Sequence record: MN445184
DNA: 64,000 bases
DNA from: Escherichia phage vB_EcoA_4HA11
Reading direction: 5' to 3' (one strand)
A program made the translations under genes and the position numbers. How positions within the stretch are numbered: position 1 is the first letter of the stretch; every line of letters starts with the position of its first letter. Below, piece after piece: positions 35,312 through 62,680 of this stretch. The notes beneath the pieces were generated by a model, which made no database searches, had not been told where the DNA came from, and was given only the letters and a program-made list of their open reading frames with translations.

Positions 35312-35340
35312 GAAATAAAAACCCCGCCGAAGCGGGGTTT
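35312..35340 (-). terminator. rho-independent terminator after the major capsid gene
   Basis: CCCCGC-UUCG-GCGGGG (35322..35337) followed by UUUUUAUUU on minus strand. Confidence 0.65.
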
Positions 35341-35355
35341 GTAAGTCGTTGTTAA

Positions 35356-36678
35356 TTAAAACAAACTTTTGATTAAGCCCTTCCTGAAATACGGGTTGCT
35401 GTCTTGAGCAATACCGTCAGCAGTCACGTAAACCTGCGGGTCTTGGTTAGCCGGAATCTGTACGAACGGGTTAGCACAGATGCCGTAACGGGTTTTGAAC
35501 GCCATACGCGGAGCGAAGGTGGTTTCACCCTGGGTGCGGTACATTTCCAGCGGCACATACGGCGCGAAGAAGATACCGGCATCCAGCGCAGTTGCGCCTT
35601 TGTATGCCAGAGTGATATATTCTGCTACAGCATACGGGTCAACATAGACGCGCATACCGTTGGACAGAACACCAGCGAAGGTCTGGCCAGTCGGGTCAAC
35701 AGCCAGTTTAGTGTTTTCCTGCAGAACCGGAGCATAGTCCAGCATGCCAGACATCGCCAGAGCGGATGCCACGTTCGGAGAACACAGAACACGGTTGCCT
35801 TTACCACGACGGGTGTCAACACCGATACCGTTCGCTTCAACTTCCAGCATGAAAGTCAGGAACTTCCATTTTTCCAGCGCCCAACGACCAGAGATGTCCT
35901 GCGCGATATCAACAACACCGTTGGTGCCGAATTTTTTGAAGCGAACAGCACTGAAGTTCATGGTGCGGATGAATTCACGGTTCATTTCCGCCTGAATTTC
36001 AGTTACCATCACGTCAGACAGGATATTATCCACGTCTTCGCCGTGAATTGCCATCATGTCCTGACGCAGTTCATGGCTGTAATCAGCATACAGGCCGCGA
36101 GACTTGGCAGTAACGGTCGCTTTCTGAACAGTAATACCAACACGCGCCCAAGGGTTGGTGGTAGTACCCAGCAGTTCAGCGTCACTTGACGGCATACCTT
36201 TACCGATAGTGGTCACGACAGAGCCGGAACCTTCGATTTCAGCCTGACTAAAGCCTGACGGGTCGCCAGCCTGTACAGTACCATCACCGGAATAGCCGGA
36301 ATCGGCTTCCTGCATGAACAGTTCTTTACGAGACTGTGCGGTGTTGGAACTGTCACCAACACCCTGGCGAGCGCGCAGTGCAAAGATCTGACCGTCAGGA
36401 CCAGACAGCGGCTGAACACCGAAGAAGTCCATCGCGATGTTGATCGGCGCCAGACGTTTTGCCATGTCGATCAGAACTGGCTGCCATTTACCGACAGTGC
36501 TGTTCACAGAACCAGGTGCGTCAGATTCGCCCAGGTTTTTTGCGTTCCATTCAGCCTGGTTCTGCATCAGACGGATGGTTACGTTTTCGGCAGACAGAGG
36601 TTGAATAGCTTCAGATTCTTTTTGGAGAACTGGCAGCCACTGTTTGCGCATTTCTTCGGTTACAAGTTTCTTAGTCAT
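35356..36678 (-). CDS. gp23: major capsid protein (gp23-like)
   Basis: 440 aa, last gene of the 20-...-21-22-23 order; HK97-fold-sized; highly expressed-gene context with terminator. Confidence 0.75.
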   Translation of the reverse strand: MTKKLVTEEMRKQWLPVLQKESEAIQPLSAENVTIRLMQNQAEWNAKNLGESDAPGSVNSTVGKWQPVLIDMAKRLAPINIAMDFFGVQPLSGPDGQIFALRARQGVGDSSNTAQSRKELFMQEADSGYSGDGTVQAGDPSGFSQAEIEGSGSVVTTIGKGMPSSDAELLGTTTNPWARVGITVQKATVTAKSRGLYADYSHELRQDMMAIHGEDVDNILSDVMVTEIQAEMNREFIRTMNFSAVRFKKFGTNGVVDIAQDISGRWALEKWKFLTFMLEVEANGIGVDTRRGKGNRVLCSPNVASALAMSGMLDYAPVLQENTKLAVDPTGQTFAGVLSNGMRVYVDPYAVAEYITLAYKGATALDAGIFFAPYVPLEMYRTQGETTFAPRMAFKTRYGICANPFVQIPANQDPQVYVTADGIAQDSNPYFRKGLIKSLF

Positions 36679-36718
36679 GATGCTCGTTCCTTACATTGAT
36701 ATTCAGTTAAGTTGAAAT

Positions 36719-36726
36719 TACTTAGT
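36719..36726 (-). promoter_or_regulatory. late-promoter-like motif variant ACTAAGTA upstream of capsid gene
   Basis: One mismatch from the recurring ACTAAATA motif. Confidence 0.25.
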
Positions 36727-36769
36727 AGTTCAAAATCAAGCCCCCTTTCGAGGGCTGTGGCTGCTAAAA

Positions 36770-60480: not shown

Positions 60481-62577
60481 TTAAAGTGTGTATGTTACAT
60501 AACTTCCATCTGGTTTTTTAGCAAGCAACCTCAATGCTCCGTCACTTCCGAAGAAGAATCCTATAGATGAATTATGTTCCAGAGCGCTCTCTGGTAATTG
60601 TAAAGGGGCAGCAGGTATACTCATATGCTTAAAGCCTAAGCGGTTAAGCTGAAACTCACCTACACGTACACCCTCCTGAATTGCCGAAAGCTTGACAATA
60701 CTTGCCTCACCCCCTGGTGTAGCAACCTGGCAATCTGCCGTCATAAGCAAAGATGGGTTTGTAGTACCACCCATAGCAGGTTGCATTGCAAGTGTCATTT
60801 GGTTGGCACTATGCTGAACATTGATATTACCTCCCTGAATATCGCTTATATAGGTACATAGTAATTTCTTAGTACCGGAACCAGCACAGGAAACATTACT
60901 TACTTCTGAAGACGGAGCGTATATAGCGTAACCTTGTGTAGTATATGCATGGATGTTAATACCACGAAGTCTACTACCTCCCTCACAGGTAAGCTGATTT
61001 AGGTTAGTTAAATCCTTATTCGCACCTACTACAGTAATGTTAGTAATATCATTGTTAGTACCCCTATCGAAGACGCCTTCCTTATGGGCCTCATAAGTAA
61101 CAACATTATCAATAATATTTTTCTGACCATCCCACCAAGCACCAATCCCCATACAATCACGAGTAATAATATTACGGATGATATGTTGAGTAGGTAGGTG
61201 GAACCATGGATACTCTGCGAGTGAGTAGTCATCCACACGTTCAGTTGGCGACCCTGTGTCAGCATTAACATCAATACCATCATAGTAACACTGGATTGTA
61301 GTTATATTGTCGAACACTAAACGGTAGTTCCTGGCTGAACGACCTCCAATTTCGTTCTGATAGGTTTTAATACCTGATTCTCCAACACGGTATGAGATTA
61401 AATCCCTTACTCCACCATCATGGTCTGTACCACCATCATTGCGAATGAACAGTACAGCGGAACCAGAGCCATATTTTATCTCACCCCCAACAACCCAGTT
61501 GCCAGTACCCCATGCAGTTGTATGATGGTTCTCAAATGTAATGCCCGATTCCAAAGCAATAAAATTGCGTGGATTCTTAACAAGAATCCTATTACATAAA
61601 GTAAATAGATAACCACCAAATGTAGCTTCTGGGTTCTCTACGATGATATTATCGCCGCTCATTATTCGCAAAGTAGCACCAGCAACCTGATTTTTTACAT
61701 TATCAGGAAGGTCGTCCCAAATATCTAAATCGTTAATATTTGGCTTATATCCAACATCCAAACGCTGCTGAACAGATGCCAGAACTTGTGTTGGGTCTGT
61801 AACCCAATTACCGTTTGCATCGAATCGGTAAACAGTATACGGCGTAGTTTTAGTATGCATGTGCGGTTTCTTAATTACTGAACCCGCACCCAAACCATTC
61901 CAAACCAACATACCATCGCCAATGAATTTTCCTTTGCATTCAATGATTAAAACTTTACCGCTAAAATCTACATTCTCATCTGCAGTAAAAGTGTAGTCAA
62001 CATCAATAAGCAATCCATCTACGGCTGCTGTCGCTGCATCCTGTAATGTAGAATAATCAGATAACTTTACTGAATATTTGAATTTCTTATTAGCTTCCTG
62101 CCTAAATGCAGCATCACCAACACTAACCCAAGCACCTAAACCAACGCCACCAGTTGATGCTGGAGTTGAACCAGCAGGAACAACTTTAGGTAATGCACCA
62201 TCCCATCGATATTTTTCATCATCGTGAACAAGAAGTTCATTTTTCACATTAATAGTATGGCCGAAATTAAAAGAACCAGGTAAAGTCACATATTCTTCGC
62301 GGCTTACTGCTAATTCCCCGAGATCAACAGAGCCAGAAGAATGAGTAAGGATGGCTTGTTCGTTCAGACTTATCGCAGTCGTTCCTGAAACAATACCTGA
62401 AGGAAGAGAATAAGCCCGTTGGGTAGACTCATCATAAATTACTTTAAATCCGCTGAGATCAATACCGACAGTGAAATAAATGACTTCGTCTTCTTTGACA
62501 CCGAAATTTCGAGCGATAGATTGTTTGTTAACTTCTATGGAAGTGGAGCCGCGTGGTTGATTGAATTGAGAAATCAT
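60481..62577 (-). CDS. tailspike protein (698 aa)
   Basis: N-terminal module shared with the 770-aa tailspike; remainder divergent. Confidence 0.7.
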   Translation of the reverse strand: MISQFNQPRGSTSIEVNKQSIARNFGVKEDEVIYFTVGIDLSGFKVIYDESTQRAYSLPSGIVSGTTAISLNEQAILTHSSGSVDLGELAVSREEYVTLPGSFNFGHTINVKNELLVHDDEKYRWDGALPKVVPAGSTPASTGGVGLGAWVSVGDAAFRQEANKKFKYSVKLSDYSTLQDAATAAVDGLLIDVDYTFTADENVDFSGKVLIIECKGKFIGDGMLVWNGLGAGSVIKKPHMHTKTTPYTVYRFDANGNWVTDPTQVLASVQQRLDVGYKPNINDLDIWDDLPDNVKNQVAGATLRIMSGDNIIVENPEATFGGYLFTLCNRILVKNPRNFIALESGITFENHHTTAWGTGNWVVGGEIKYGSGSAVLFIRNDGGTDHDGGVRDLISYRVGESGIKTYQNEIGGRSARNYRLVFDNITTIQCYYDGIDVNADTGSPTERVDDYSLAEYPWFHLPTQHIIRNIITRDCMGIGAWWDGQKNIIDNVVTYEAHKEGVFDRGTNNDITNITVVGANKDLTNLNQLTCEGGSRLRGINIHAYTTQGYAIYAPSSEVSNVSCAGSGTKKLLCTYISDIQGGNINVQHSANQMTLAMQPAMGGTTNPSLLMTADCQVATPGGEASIVKLSAIQEGVRVGEFQLNRLGFKHMSIPAAPLQLPESALEHNSSIGFFFGSDGALRLLAKKPDGSYVTYTL
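62098..62577 (-). repeat. N-terminal tailspike module, paralogous copy B
   Basis: Similar to 57069..57548. Confidence 0.7.
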
Positions 62578-62581
62578 GATA

Positions 62582-62613
62582 ATACCCCATAAAGGATGAC
62601 CAATATGGGGTAT
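62582..62613 (-). promoter_or_regulatory. 10-bp inverted repeat ATACCCCATA...TATGGGGTAT overlapping ACTAAATA motif
   Basis: Arms 62582..62591 and 62604..62613; GGGG of the 3' arm is the only SD-like element before ATG 62577. Confidence 0.4.
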
Positions 62614-62618
62614 TTAGT
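62611..62618 (-). promoter_or_regulatory. late-promoter-like motif ACTAAATA
   Basis: Upstream of the 698-aa tailspike gene. Confidence 0.35.
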
Positions 62619-62651
62619 CTGAATTAACAAAATTTTATAAACATGGATATA

Positions 62652-62680
62652 ATAAGAACCCCGCCGAAGCGGGGTTTTTA
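62652..62680. terminator. terminator hairpin CCCCGC-UUCG-GCGGGG
   Basis: Stem 62659..62674; sequence nearly identical to the one at 55205..55233. Confidence 0.6.

What the first reader, a model, noticed from the sequence alone, without database searches (positions are those of the whole stretch)
35312..62680. One terminator hairpin sequence reused at least five times (CCCCGC-UUCG-GCGGGG)
Nearly identical hairpins with a UUCG-type tetraloop and flanking A/U runs follow the capsid gene (35322..35337), sheath gene (41675..41690) and three tailspike genes (55214..55229, 60448..60463 with UUUG loop, 62659..62674). The copies at 55205..55233 and 62652..62680 also share the adjacent last codons of their tailspike genes. 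Such conserved boundaries could act as recombination joints for shuffling tailspike cassettes.
Basis: seen in the sequence. Interest (0 to 1): 0.45.

Follow-up and report, generated by a model that had tools for sequence, protein, structure and literature searches.

The report
Reused terminator hairpin bounding tailspike modules
A Salmonella phage of a well-known family puts the same very stable "stop transcription" hairpin after its capsid, sheath and tailspike genes, and in relatives this hairpin marks where swappable host-recognition modules end, which is ordinary as a terminator but useful for understanding and engineering host range.

Summary
The window is a Kuttervirus (Ackermannviridae) genome segment about 99% identical to Salmonella phages S117, S118 and SFP10. 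CCCCGC-N4-GCGGGG occurs five times (0 expected), always in the sense orientation. It lies 5-20 nt after the stop codons of the major capsid, sheath, TSP1, TSP3 and TSP4 genes. A sixth copy with a 5-nt loop lies at 18722-18738. TSP2 is followed by a compensatory variant, CCCCUC-UUAG-GAGGGG.

The hairpin is a generic intrinsic-terminator design. It is identical to the synthetic terminator BBa_B1002, occurs in at least 125 unrelated viral contigs (101 with a T-tail), and is already annotated as "terminator" in related GenBank records.

The recombination-joint idea is partly supported.
- Across 20 Kuttervirus loci, 10 of 13 unrelated TSP1 modules join the conserved downstream block exactly at the A-tract and hairpin.
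- One module found in both the TSP1 and TSP4 slots loses homology 8 nt past the hairpin.
- Homology with an N4-like phage ends inside the hairpin.
- PhaxI lost TSP3 by recombination between the two paralogous terminator-promoter cassettes.
- Other breakpoints exist, and cause cannot be separated from selection.

Closest concept: the PeSL terminator/promoter cassettes of T4-like phages. No transcript mapping was found.

The parts
35319..35340 (-). Terminator hairpin after the major capsid gene: AAACCCCGC-UUCG-GCGGGGUUU followed by UUAUUU
   Evidence: Folding energy -17.8 kcal/mol, z-score -4.15. The stem is identical in Kuttervirus, Limestonevirus, Agtrevirus and Taipeivirus, although the spacer between stop codon and hairpin is unrelated among them.
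41673..41692 (-). Terminator hairpin after the tail sheath gene: AACCCCGC-UUCG-GCGGGGUU followed by UUCCUUU
   Evidence: Ag3 and ECML-4 carry GCCCUC-UUCG-GAGGGC at the same position. Annotated as a terminator in Matapan and LIMEstone1.
55214..55242 (-). TSP1 3' joint: last Ser codon, TAG stop, UAAAAA, then the hairpin CCCCGC-UUCG-GCGGGG (55214-55229)
   Evidence: In relatives with other TSP1 modules, 38 of 49 sampled records stay homologous up to 1-4 nt from the stop codon. Of 13 distinct TSP1-slot modules, 10 carry this hairpin.
60446..60465 (-). Hairpin after TSP3: AACCCCGC-UUUG-GCGGGGUU followed by CUUAUUAU
   Evidence: Relatives with other TSP3 modules become homologous exactly at the first C of the stem.
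62657..62687 (-). TSP4 3' joint: Ser codon, TAG stop, UAAAAA, then the hairpin AACCCCGC-UUCG-GCGGGGUU (62657-62676)
   Evidence: -20.1 kcal/mol, z-score -6.4. Of 45 sampled records with another TSP4 module, 24 break at positions 194-209 of the query, which is the hairpin and A-run.
18720..18740 (-).
   Evidence: Present in S117 at 83610-83630.
57574..57591 (-). Hairpin after TSP2: ACCCCUC-UUAG-GAGGGGC, a compensatory variant (G:C to U:A at stem position 5) with no U-tract
   Evidence: S117 and CBA120 have CCCCUC-UUCG-GAGGGG. Covariation count.
60366..60445 (-). Remainder of the TSP3/TSP2 intergenic cassette: U-rich spacer, the late-promoter-like motif CTAAATACCCC (60397-60407), and an 11-bp hairpin AAAUACCCCAU...AUGGGGUAUUU just before the TSP2 start
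   Evidence: Repeat D4; motif search; fold. The promoter function is inferred, not shown.
62578..62656 (-). Paralogous TSP4/TSP3 intergenic cassette: spacer, CTAAATACCCC (62607-62617), and a 5'UTR hairpin before the TSP3 ATG at 62577
   Evidence: It is 86-87% identical to the TSP3/TSP2 cassette. PhaxI lost TSP3 by recombination between these two cassettes.
55143..55213 (-). TSP1/VriC intergenic block, conserved whichever TSP1 module is present
   Evidence: Mean pairwise identity about 1.0 from position -3 onward, against about 0.25 upstream, across 10 unrelated modules.
57333..57353 (-). GTTAVSL-coding motif in TSP1, the 5' recombination site proposed in the literature. TSP3 has GTTAISL at 62365-62385.
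   Evidence: Proposed in Sorensen et al. 2021, PMC8432352.
35356..36678 (-). Major capsid protein gene (gp23-like)
41699..43594 (-). Tail sheath gene (gp18-like)
55236..64000 (-). Tailspike cluster: TSP1 55236-57548; TSP2 57600-60365 (first in-frame ATG at 60380); TSP3 60481-62577; TSP4 from 62681, running off the window end

Best explanation
The repeats are copies of one optimised Rho-independent terminator, which may also protect the mRNA 3' end. Each consists of an A-tract, a 6-8 bp G+C stem closed on a C(UUCG)G tetraloop, and a U-rich tail. They sit after the most heavily expressed late genes (capsid and sheath) and after each tailspike gene of a Kuttervirus phage.

In the transcript the hairpin forms just past the stop codon. 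It would stop or attenuate RNA polymerase and block 3' exonucleases. This step is inferred from anatomy, covariation and identity to a working synthetic terminator; it is not shown by transcript data.

In the tailspike cluster the hairpin is the first element of a compact intergenic cassette. The cassette holds the terminator, a late-promoter-like CTAAATACCCC motif, and a hairpin that covers the ribosome-binding region. Paralogous copies of the whole cassette lie between TSP4 and TSP3 and between TSP3 and TSP2. The other two tailspike junctions (TSP2/TSP1 and TSP1/VriC) share only the hairpin design. Together these elements make each tailspike gene a self-contained expression unit.

The same 25-30 nt (stop codon, A-tract, hairpin, first Us) follows unrelated receptor-binding modules. 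It is therefore the 3' edge of the exchangeable module. This is shown by comparison of related phages.

It probably also supplies the short homology for the 3' crossover. The 5' partner would be the known site in the TD1 domain (GTTAVSL motif). This causal step is inferred, at roughly 50% confidence.
For: Occurrence and structure
- Five exact copies against none expected by chance; a sixth with a 5-nt loop.
- All seven copies in S117 are in the sense orientation relative to the upstream gene, including the one on the opposite strand.
- Stable folds with z-scores of -3.2 to -6.4.
- Pairing is kept through compensatory changes. In 15 variants, 97.8% of cells form standard pairs and 4 of 6 pairs change on both sides; 0 of 500 shuffles reach the paired percentage or the covariation score, and 1 of 500 reaches the count of pairs changed on both sides. 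Examples: the Ag3/ECML-4 sheath hairpin GCCCUC..GAGGGC, the TSP2 hairpin CCCCUC..GAGGGG, and the phiEa2809 capsid hairpin AGCCCUC-UCCG-GAGGGCU.

Terminator identity
- Identical to BBa_B1002, aaaaaaCCCCGCTTCGGCGGGGtttttt.
- 101 of 125 copies in unrelated IMG/VR contigs have at least 5 T in the next 9 nt.
- Annotated as terminators in related records.
- The UUCG tetraloop was first found in T4 mRNA (PMC4371310).

Module boundary
- In the TSP1 slot, 10 of 13 unrelated modules are followed by the hairpin. Pairwise identity is about 0.25 upstream of -6 and 1.0 from -3 onward.
- BLAST end-points cluster at the hairpin: 38 of 49 at TSP1/VriC, 17 of 21 exactly at the first stem base at TSP3/TSP2, 6 of 7, and 24 of 45 at TSP4/TSP3.
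- The same module in the TSP1 slot (CBA120, window) and the TSP4 slot (Se-E, BRM13314) is 87-97% identical up to +29/30 nt after the stop, then becomes slot-specific.
- The N4-like phage FSL SP-076 shares the module, stop codon and 13-nt spacer, and then diverges inside the hairpin.
- Phage C1 and phage BS5 share the 3' end of a tailspike gene plus the hairpin, and diverge about 10 nt after it.
- The single intergenic region in PhaxI is a chimera of the two paralogous cassettes, with TSP3 deleted.
Against: - No transcript 3'-end data for any Ackermannviridae phage was found.
- The U-tracts are weak after TSP3 and TSP4 and absent after TSP2, so some copies may attenuate or stabilise rather than terminate.
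- Breakpoints are not exclusive to the hairpin. At TSP4/TSP3, 9 of 45 lie 13 nt past it, 3 lie 19 nt past it, and 9 lie at the promoter motif. EP75 and the L009/ECML-4/Matapan group have no hairpin there. Det7 and bering carry an Agtrevirus-type hairpin that came with the module.
- The PhaxI crossover lies in the AU-rich spacer, not in the hairpin.
- Sampled records are related to each other, so the counts are not independent events.
- The hairpin variants used for the covariation count were picked by eye.
- A boundary at the first conserved functional element after the stop codon is expected from selection alone.
Confidence: 0.7

Rival explanations
1. The hairpins are only terminators. The same sequence recurs because it is an optimum that many phages and hosts reach independently, and because the tailspike genes and their intergenic regions arose by duplication. 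The hairpin plays no part in recombination. Module boundaries fall on it only because it is the first element after the stop codon that selection preserves, while the real crossovers happen anywhere in the homologous flanks.
For: - The exact 16-mer is widespread in unrelated viral contigs with terminator-like tails.
- Every complete E. coli genome has 8-19 near matches to the idealised 32-mer.
- The capsid and sheath copies lie outside any exchangeable cassette.
- The spacer between stop codon and hairpin is only 5-18 nt, so little room exists for other boundaries.
- Alternative breakpoints and alternative hairpins exist.
- The PhaxI crossover is not in the hairpin.
Against: - For the module that occupies both the TSP1 and TSP4 slots, the flanks beyond the hairpin are not homologous. 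The 3' junction therefore had to form within the roughly 30 nt of stop codon, A-tract, hairpin and first Us.
- Homology with the unrelated phage SP-076 ends inside the hairpin.
- Unrelated modules share not only the hairpin but also the same stop codon and spacer, either TAR-TAAAAA or TAA-CAAAA(A).
- No tandem double terminators were seen in the TSP1 slot, although random joining would produce some.
Confidence: 0.4
2. The hairpins act mainly after transcription. They would protect 3' ends against exonucleases or serve as processing sites that set the relative amounts of the late mRNAs, and polymerase largely reads through them. This would apply especially to the copies after TSP2, TSP3 and TSP4.
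For: - Weak or absent U-tracts after TSP3/TSP4 (UUCUUAUUAU) and TSP2 (CUUACUAG).
- No promoter-like motif lies between TSP2 and TSP1 (51-nt spacer), so TSP1 would need read-through.
- The hairpin over the ribosome-binding region downstream of the terminators makes sense only if some read-through occurs.
Against: - The capsid, sheath and 18722 copies have good U-tracts.
- The identical hairpin with a T-tract is used as a forward terminator in E. coli vectors.
- The two roles do not exclude each other.
Confidence: 0.2
3. The repeat is a DNA-level element: a binding or cleavage site for a phage protein such as a homing endonuclease, or a small mobile repeat of the MITE or REP type.
For: - GIY-YIG endonuclease genes lie directly downstream of the sheath copy (41184-41642, Pfam E-value 1e-11) and of the capsid copy (34627-35274, weak SegE-like match).
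- Homology among relatives breaks at these hairpins where such genes come and go.
- Loop-flipped versions in BRM13314 and PhaxI point to events at the DNA palindrome.
Against: - The strict sense orientation of the asymmetric loop in all seven S117 copies points to an RNA-level function.
- Compensatory changes keep pairing rather than sequence.
- Beyond the A and T tracts the flanks share nothing: no terminal repeats, no target duplications, and a unit of only about 30 nt.
- The same sequence occurs in many unrelated phages that lack these endonucleases.
Confidence: 0.05

Closest known systems
Intrinsic (Rho-independent) terminators with C(UUCG)G tetraloops in T4-type phages; the synthetic terminator BBa_B1002
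   Same: A-tract, G+C stem, UUCG loop closed by a C-G pair, and a U-tract immediately after a stop codon. The 16-nt hairpin is identical to BBa_B1002, cgcaaaaaaCCCCGCTTCGGCGGGGttttttcgc. The exceptional stability of UUCG hairpins was first noted in T4 mRNA (PMC4371310).
   Different: Several copies have interrupted or weak U-tracts. One genome reuses a single stem sequence seven times, whereas the other terminator-like sites among about 48 listed in S117 use other stems. Function in this phage has not been measured.
PeSLs (promoter-early stem-loops) of T4-like phages (Arbiol et al. 2010, PMC2839356; Comeau et al. 2014, PMC4122927)
   Same: Short, repeated, composite terminator/promoter cassettes in intergenic regions that flank the most variable genes and act as points of exchange between otherwise unrelated sequences. 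Here the repeated terminator-plus-promoter cassettes bound exchangeable tailspike modules, and recombination between two cassettes deleted TSP3 in PhaxI.
   Different: PeSLs contain strong sigma-70-type early promoters and lie mostly in hyperplastic regions full of ORFans. Here the associated motif is late-promoter-like (CTAAATACCCC) and no sigma-70 match lies on the coding strand. The genes are essential virion receptor-binding proteins, and the phage family is Ackermannviridae. Mini-circles were not tested.
Tailspike module exchange in Ackermannviridae (Sorensen et al. 2021, PMC8432352; PMC11414711, iScience 2024)
   Same: The same locus and the same module swaps among TSP1, TSP3 and TSP4. 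The GTTAVSL motif at the end of TD1 is present here in TSP1 (57333-57353) and as GTTAISL in TSP3.
   Different: Those papers define only the 5' site and the conserved flanking genes. Neither mentions intergenic regions, hairpins or terminators: the word counts were zero. The 3' boundary described here is additional.
Translational control of the T4 lysozyme gene (e) by a hairpin that contains the late promoter (recalled from memory, not checked here)
   Same: An inverted repeat whose right arm covers the ribosome-binding region and whose left arm overlaps the late-promoter-like motif. Read-through transcripts would then fold and be silent, while transcripts started at the promoter would be translatable.
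   Different: Purely inferred here. The transcription start sites and the late-promoter consensus of this family have not been determined (PMC3184105).

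Membership tests
Rho-independent terminator | Stable G+C-rich stem-loop in the transcript | tested here: met
   Stems of 6-9 bp, folding energies -15 to -21.6 kcal/mol, z-scores -3.2 to -6.4.
Rho-independent terminator | Run of U directly 3' of the stem | tested here: inconclusive
   Good after the capsid gene (UUUUUAUUU), the sheath gene (UUUUCCUUU) and the 18722 copy (UUUCUUUU). Offset after TSP1 (GUUUUAUUU). Weak after TSP3 and TSP4 (UUCUUAUUAU). Absent after TSP2.
Rho-independent terminator | Position just after a stop codon, oriented with the upstream gene | tested here: met
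   5-20 nt after stop codons. All seven S117 copies are in the sense orientation.
Rho-independent terminator | Pairing maintained by compensatory substitutions in relatives | tested here: met
   97.8% of cells paired; 4 of 6 pairs changed on both sides; 0 of 500 shuffles reach the paired percentage or covariation score (variants chosen by eye). Orthologous sites in Ag3, ECML-4 and phiEa2809 have other stems.
Rho-independent terminator | RNA 3' ends at the U-tract in vivo or in vitro | not testable with these tools
   No Ackermannviridae transcript-end data found.
C(UUCG)G tetraloop hairpin | UUCG loop closed by a C-G pair | tested here: met
   Four of the six window copies. One has UUUG and one has a 5-nt loop.
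PeSL composite cassette | Stem-loop and promoter combined in one short repeated intergenic motif | tested here: inconclusive
   The terminator, a CTAAATACCCC motif and a 5'UTR hairpin are repeated at 60366-60471 and 62577-62682. Promoter activity is not shown.
PeSL composite cassette | The promoter is a strong sigma-70-type early promoter | tested here: not met
   No sigma-70-like site on the coding strand in these spacers. The only good match (62624-62653) is on the opposite strand.
PeSL composite cassette | Copies flank variable genes and mark insertion, deletion and replacement boundaries | tested here: met
   PhaxI deletion between two cassettes.
PeSL composite cassette | Formation of mini-circles by recombination between copies | not testable with these tools
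   Needs PCR or sequencing of infected cells.
Mobile repeat (MITE/REP-like) or homing-endonuclease site | Terminal repeats, target duplications or shared flanks beyond the hairpin; orientation-independent | tested here: not met
   Flanks share only A and T tracts; orientation is strictly sense.

The most novel reading that the evidence does not exclude
Terminators that evolved independently yet are near-identical could work as a universal adaptor for host-range evolution. Many unrelated phages end their tailspike genes with the same stop codon, A-tract and CCCC(G/U)C-UUCG-G(C/A)GGGG hairpin. Those 25-30 nt could give enough homology for a 3' crossover. That would let Kuttervirus capture or donate receptor-binding modules across slots (TSP1, TSP3, TSP4) and across families (Schitoviridae, Skatevirus, Deseoctovirus). 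It would be a late-gene, virion-gene counterpart of the PeSL cassettes.
Probability: 0.3. Interest if true: 0.65.

Novelty: new variant of a known kind. Interest (0 to 1): 0.4.

Why it matters
As terminators the hairpins are routine and are already annotated in related genomes.

What the comparison adds is the missing 3' end of the exchangeable tailspike cassette in Ackermannviridae. The literature defines the 5' site (the TD1/GTTAVSL motif) but says nothing about the 3' side.

If the terminator cassette really guides crossovers, three things follow.
- It would explain how these phages reshuffle up to four receptor-binding proteins without breaking expression.
- It would extend the PeSL idea from early ORFan regions to essential late virion genes.
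- It would give engineers a natural, minimal 3' homology arm and insulator for swapping tailspikes.

Tried and rejected
- Chance was rejected: 0 matches in shuffles against 5 observed.
- Rfam gave no family match anywhere in the window at gathering thresholds.
- Searches for Kuttervirus or Ackermannviridae transcriptome or Term-seq data found nothing usable. The CBA120 paper states that the late-promoter sequence of this family was not identified.
- The idea that the hairpin is specific to this phage family was rejected.
- A mobile-repeat reading was rejected for lack of shared flanks and because of the strict orientation.
- The loop sequence (UUCG, UUUG, UAAU, UUCA, CGAA) was tried as a marker to place crossovers inside the hairpin. 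With 20 loci the associations were not informative.
- L007, which has a TSP4 N-terminus joined to a TSP3 module, looked like a swap between slots. It is a deletion between the TD1 regions that keeps the native TSP3 downstream sequence, so it says nothing about the 3' joint.
- The first alignment of hairpin variants misplaced one sequence and was redone without it.

Full report
**What the window is.** Megablast places the region in Kuttervirus (Ackermannviridae). Positions 55100-63000 are 99.1-99.7% identical to Salmonella phages S118, S115, S117 and SFP10. Positions 35000-43700 are 97-98.5% identical to many Kuttervirus genomes. The annotated S117 and CBA120 records identify the minus-strand genes:
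- major capsid protein, 35356-36678
- tail sheath, 41699-43594
- VriC-like structural protein, 50304-55142
- TSP1, 55236-57548
- TSP2, 57600-60365 (first in-frame ATG at 60380)
- TSP3, 60481-62577
- TSP4, starting at 62681 and running off the window end

**Check of the observation.** CCCCGCNNNNGCGGGG occurs five times, at the stated coordinates, against zero in 100 shuffles. On the coding (minus) strand the loops are UUCG four times and UUUG once. Each hairpin is preceded by an A-run and followed by a U-rich run.

The two copies after TSP1 and TSP4 share 29 identical nt, ATCATAGTAAAAA plus the hairpin. That stretch covers the last Ser codon, the TAG stop and an in-frame TAA.

- A sixth copy with a 5-nt loop lies at 18722-18738, after a 123-aa ORF.
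- The hairpin after TSP2 (57574-57591, CCCCUC-UUAG-GAGGGG) is the same helix with one compensatory base-pair change.
- In the complete genome of S117 there are seven CCCCGC...GCGGGG hairpins among about 48 listed terminator-like sites, counting both-strand listings of the same palindrome. About eleven of those sites carry UUCG in one orientation.
- All seven are in the sense orientation relative to the gene they follow, including the one on the other strand.

**What the hairpin is.** It folds stably in context, at -15 to -21.6 kcal/mol with z-scores of -3.2 to -6.4.

Relatives keep the structure.
- The capsid copy has the same stem in Kuttervirus, Limestonevirus, Agtrevirus and Taipeivirus, although the spacer between stop codon and hairpin is unrelated among them.
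- The sheath copy is replaced in Ag3 and ECML-4 by GCCCUC-UUCG-GAGGGC.
- The more distant phiEa2809 has AGCCCUC-UCCG-GAGGGCU after its capsid gene and GCCCC-UUCG-GGGGC after its sheath gene.
- Counting 15 variants, 97.8% of cells form standard pairs and four of six pairs show changes on both sides. No shuffle in 500 reaches the paired percentage or the covariation score. I chose these variants by eye, which favours pairing.

The 16-nt hairpin with its A and T tracts is identical to the synthetic terminator BBa_B1002. The exact 16-mer occurs in at least 125 places in unrelated IMG/VR contigs, and 101 of them have a T-rich tail in the UUCG orientation. Every complete E. coli genome has 8-19 near matches to an idealised 32-mer. 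The GenBank records of LIMEstone1, Matapan and Mutine already annotate these sites as terminators. Papers on AG3 and LIMEstone1 report 40 and 31 predicted terminators respectively. The stability of C(UUCG)G hairpins was discovered in T4 mRNA (PMC4371310).

So the terminator reading is sound but ordinary. Two caveats apply. The U-tracts after TSP3 and TSP4 are weak, and the one after TSP2 is absent. I also found no transcript-end data for this family.

**The surrounding cassette.** Between TSP4 and TSP3, and between TSP3 and TSP2, the whole spacer of about 105 nt is a paralogous repeat, 86-87% identical. It contains, in order:
- the terminator
- an AU-rich stretch
- the motif CTAAATACCCC, which occurs only at these two places exactly, and with one mismatch before two other late-type genes
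- an 11-bp hairpin whose right arm lies just before the start codon

The same motif-plus-hairpin precedes TSP4 in relatives. I read this as a terminator, a late promoter and a hairpin that sequesters the ribosome-binding site. That arrangement would insulate each tailspike gene. This is inference, because the late promoter of this family has not been defined.

**Test of the recombination-joint idea.** I assembled tailspike loci from 20 Kuttervirus genomes: the window, S117, CBA120, nine IMG/VR loci and eight GenBank records.

Same-slot comparisons.
- In the TSP1 slot there are 13 unrelated C-terminal modules, and 10 are followed by CCCCGC-N4-GCGGGG.
- Anchored on the hairpin, mean pairwise identity is about 0.25 up to position -6 and 1.0 from -3 (the A-run) through the stem and the next 16 nt. 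The loop varies: UUCG, UUUG, UAAU, UUCA, and a flipped CGAA.
- Several unrelated modules even share the stop codon and spacer, either TAR-TAAAAA or TAA-CAAAA(A).
- BLAST end-points in the phage collection agree. At TSP1/VriC, 38 of 49 sampled records with another module stay homologous up to 1-4 nt from the stop codon.
- At TSP3/TSP2, homology begins exactly at the first stem base in 17 of 21 sampled records and in 6 of 7. With the CBA120 module as query it begins at the A-run or first stem bases.
- At TSP4/TSP3, 24 of 45 records break at the hairpin, but 9 break 13 nt beyond it, 3 break 19 nt beyond it, and 9 break at the promoter motif.

The same module in two different slots.
- The TSP1 module of CBA120 and the window also sits in the TSP4 slot of Se-E and BRM13314, at 87-97% nt identity.
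- Homology runs from the TD1 region to +29/30 nt after the stop, which is 8 nt past the hairpin. Beyond that each copy has its slot-specific sequence.
- Because the flanks differ, the 3' junction must have formed within the element made of stop codon, A-tract, hairpin and first Us.

Exchanges with other phage families.
- The Det7/EP75-type TSP3 module is 93-99% identical to the tailspike of the N4-like phage FSL SP-076, through the stop codon and a 13-nt spacer. The hairpins then differ (CCCCUC-UUCG-GAGGGG against CCCCGC-UUUG-GCGGGG) and everything after is unrelated.
- Phage C1 (Deseoctovirus) shares the last 55 nt of CBA120 TSP3, the hairpin and 10 nt beyond it.
- Phage BS5 (Skatevirus) carries a relic of the 3' end of a P22-like tailspike gene with a perfect CCCCGC-UUCG-GCGGGG hairpin, left behind after a module replacement.

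A deletion between the cassettes. PhaxI lacks TSP3, and its single spacer is a chimera of the TSP4/TSP3 and TSP3/TSP2 cassettes. The crossover lies in the shared AU-rich segment downstream of the hairpin.

**Weighing.** It is shown that the hairpin element is the usual 3' edge of the exchangeable module, and that the repeated cassettes do recombine. It is not shown that the hairpin causes crossovers. Selection for an intact gene plus terminator would also place boundaries there. Other breakpoints and other hairpins exist, and the sampled genomes are not independent.

I put about 85% on a role as a terminator or 3'-end hairpin. I put about 50% on a real role as a site of short homology for crossovers.

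**Comparison with what is known.** The closest concept is the PeSL of T4-like phages. PeSLs are repeated composite terminator/promoter cassettes that mediate modular shuffling (PMC2839356, PMC4122927). The present cassettes fail one defining feature, the sigma-70 early promoter. They flank essential late virion genes rather than ORFans, so they are at most a late-gene analogue.

The Ackermannviridae tailspike literature proposes the 5' recombination site (GTTAVSL, present here at 57333-57353) and conserved flanking genes. It does not mention hairpins, terminators or intergenic regions. I therefore rate the finding as a new variant of a known kind, of moderate interest.

Noticed in passing
window 60366-60425 and 62578-62620 (minus strand): A very stable 11-bp hairpin, AAAUACCCCAU...AUGGGGUAUUU, lies just before the TSP2 and TSP3 start codons. 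Its left arm overlaps the late-promoter-like motif CTAAATACCCC, and its right arm holds the likely ribosome-binding GGGG. Read-through transcripts would hide the site, while transcripts started at the promoter would not. This resembles the arrangement of the T4 lysozyme gene (recalled from memory). The same design precedes TSP4 in relatives and occurs in LIMEstone1.
   Followed up: partly
window 41184-41642 (-), 34627-35274 (-), 47922-48632 (+): Free-standing homing-endonuclease-like genes sit directly next to the terminators. A GIY-YIG gene follows the sheath hairpin (Pfam E-value 1e-11). A weak SegE-like GIY-YIG gene follows the capsid hairpin. A T5orf172/MUG113/CapR-domain gene lies on the opposite strand before the hairpin at 48915-48936. 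Relatives differ in these genes, and homology breaks at the hairpins.
   Followed up: partly
L146 (PhaxI) 18536-18625: PhaxI has no TSP3. Its single spacer between TSP4 and TSP2 is a chimera of the two paralogous terminator-promoter cassettes, so a whole tailspike gene was deleted by recombination between them.
   Followed up: yes
L142 (BRM13314) TSP1 3' end; L146 (PhaxI) TSP4 3' end: Two hairpins have the loop, and in PhaxI also the inner stem, reverse-complemented relative to the usual form: CGAA instead of UUCG, and CCAAAAG instead of CUUUUGG. Inversion or template switching at the DNA palindrome would produce this.
   Followed up: no
L151 (phage BS5, Skatevirus) about 2495-2600: About 180 nt downstream of its current tailspike gene and that gene's own terminator, BS5 keeps a relic of the last roughly 20 codons of a P22-like tailspike, followed by a perfect CCCCGC-UUCG-GCGGGG hairpin. 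This looks like a scar of an earlier module replacement.
   Followed up: partly
L007 6589-9663 (IMG/VR Kuttervirus contig): A 1024-aa gene joins the TSP4 N-terminal domains to the P22-like TSP3 module and no separate TSP3 gene remains. It is a natural counterpart of the tsp3 loss and tsp4 rearrangements seen in the laboratory (PMC11414711).
   Followed up: partly
window 57070-57311 and 62102-62343: A 242-nt direct repeat, 76% identical, corresponds to the conserved N-terminal domain of TSP1 and TSP3. Overall the first 480 nt or so of the two genes are 71% identical. This is the homology that the literature proposes as the 5' exchange site.
   Followed up: partly
window 60365-60380: The TSP2 reading frame has two in-frame ATGs 15 nt apart. 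Relatives annotate the second one (MTRNV...). The first lies inside the right arm of the 5'UTR hairpin.
   Followed up: no
window 48915-48936: A different strong hairpin, GAAGGCGGG-AUAA-CCCGCCUUU with T-runs on both sides, lies between converging genes (neck gene on the minus strand, small ORF on the plus strand). The equivalent site in Matapan and Ag3 is annotated as a terminator on both strands.
   Followed up: no
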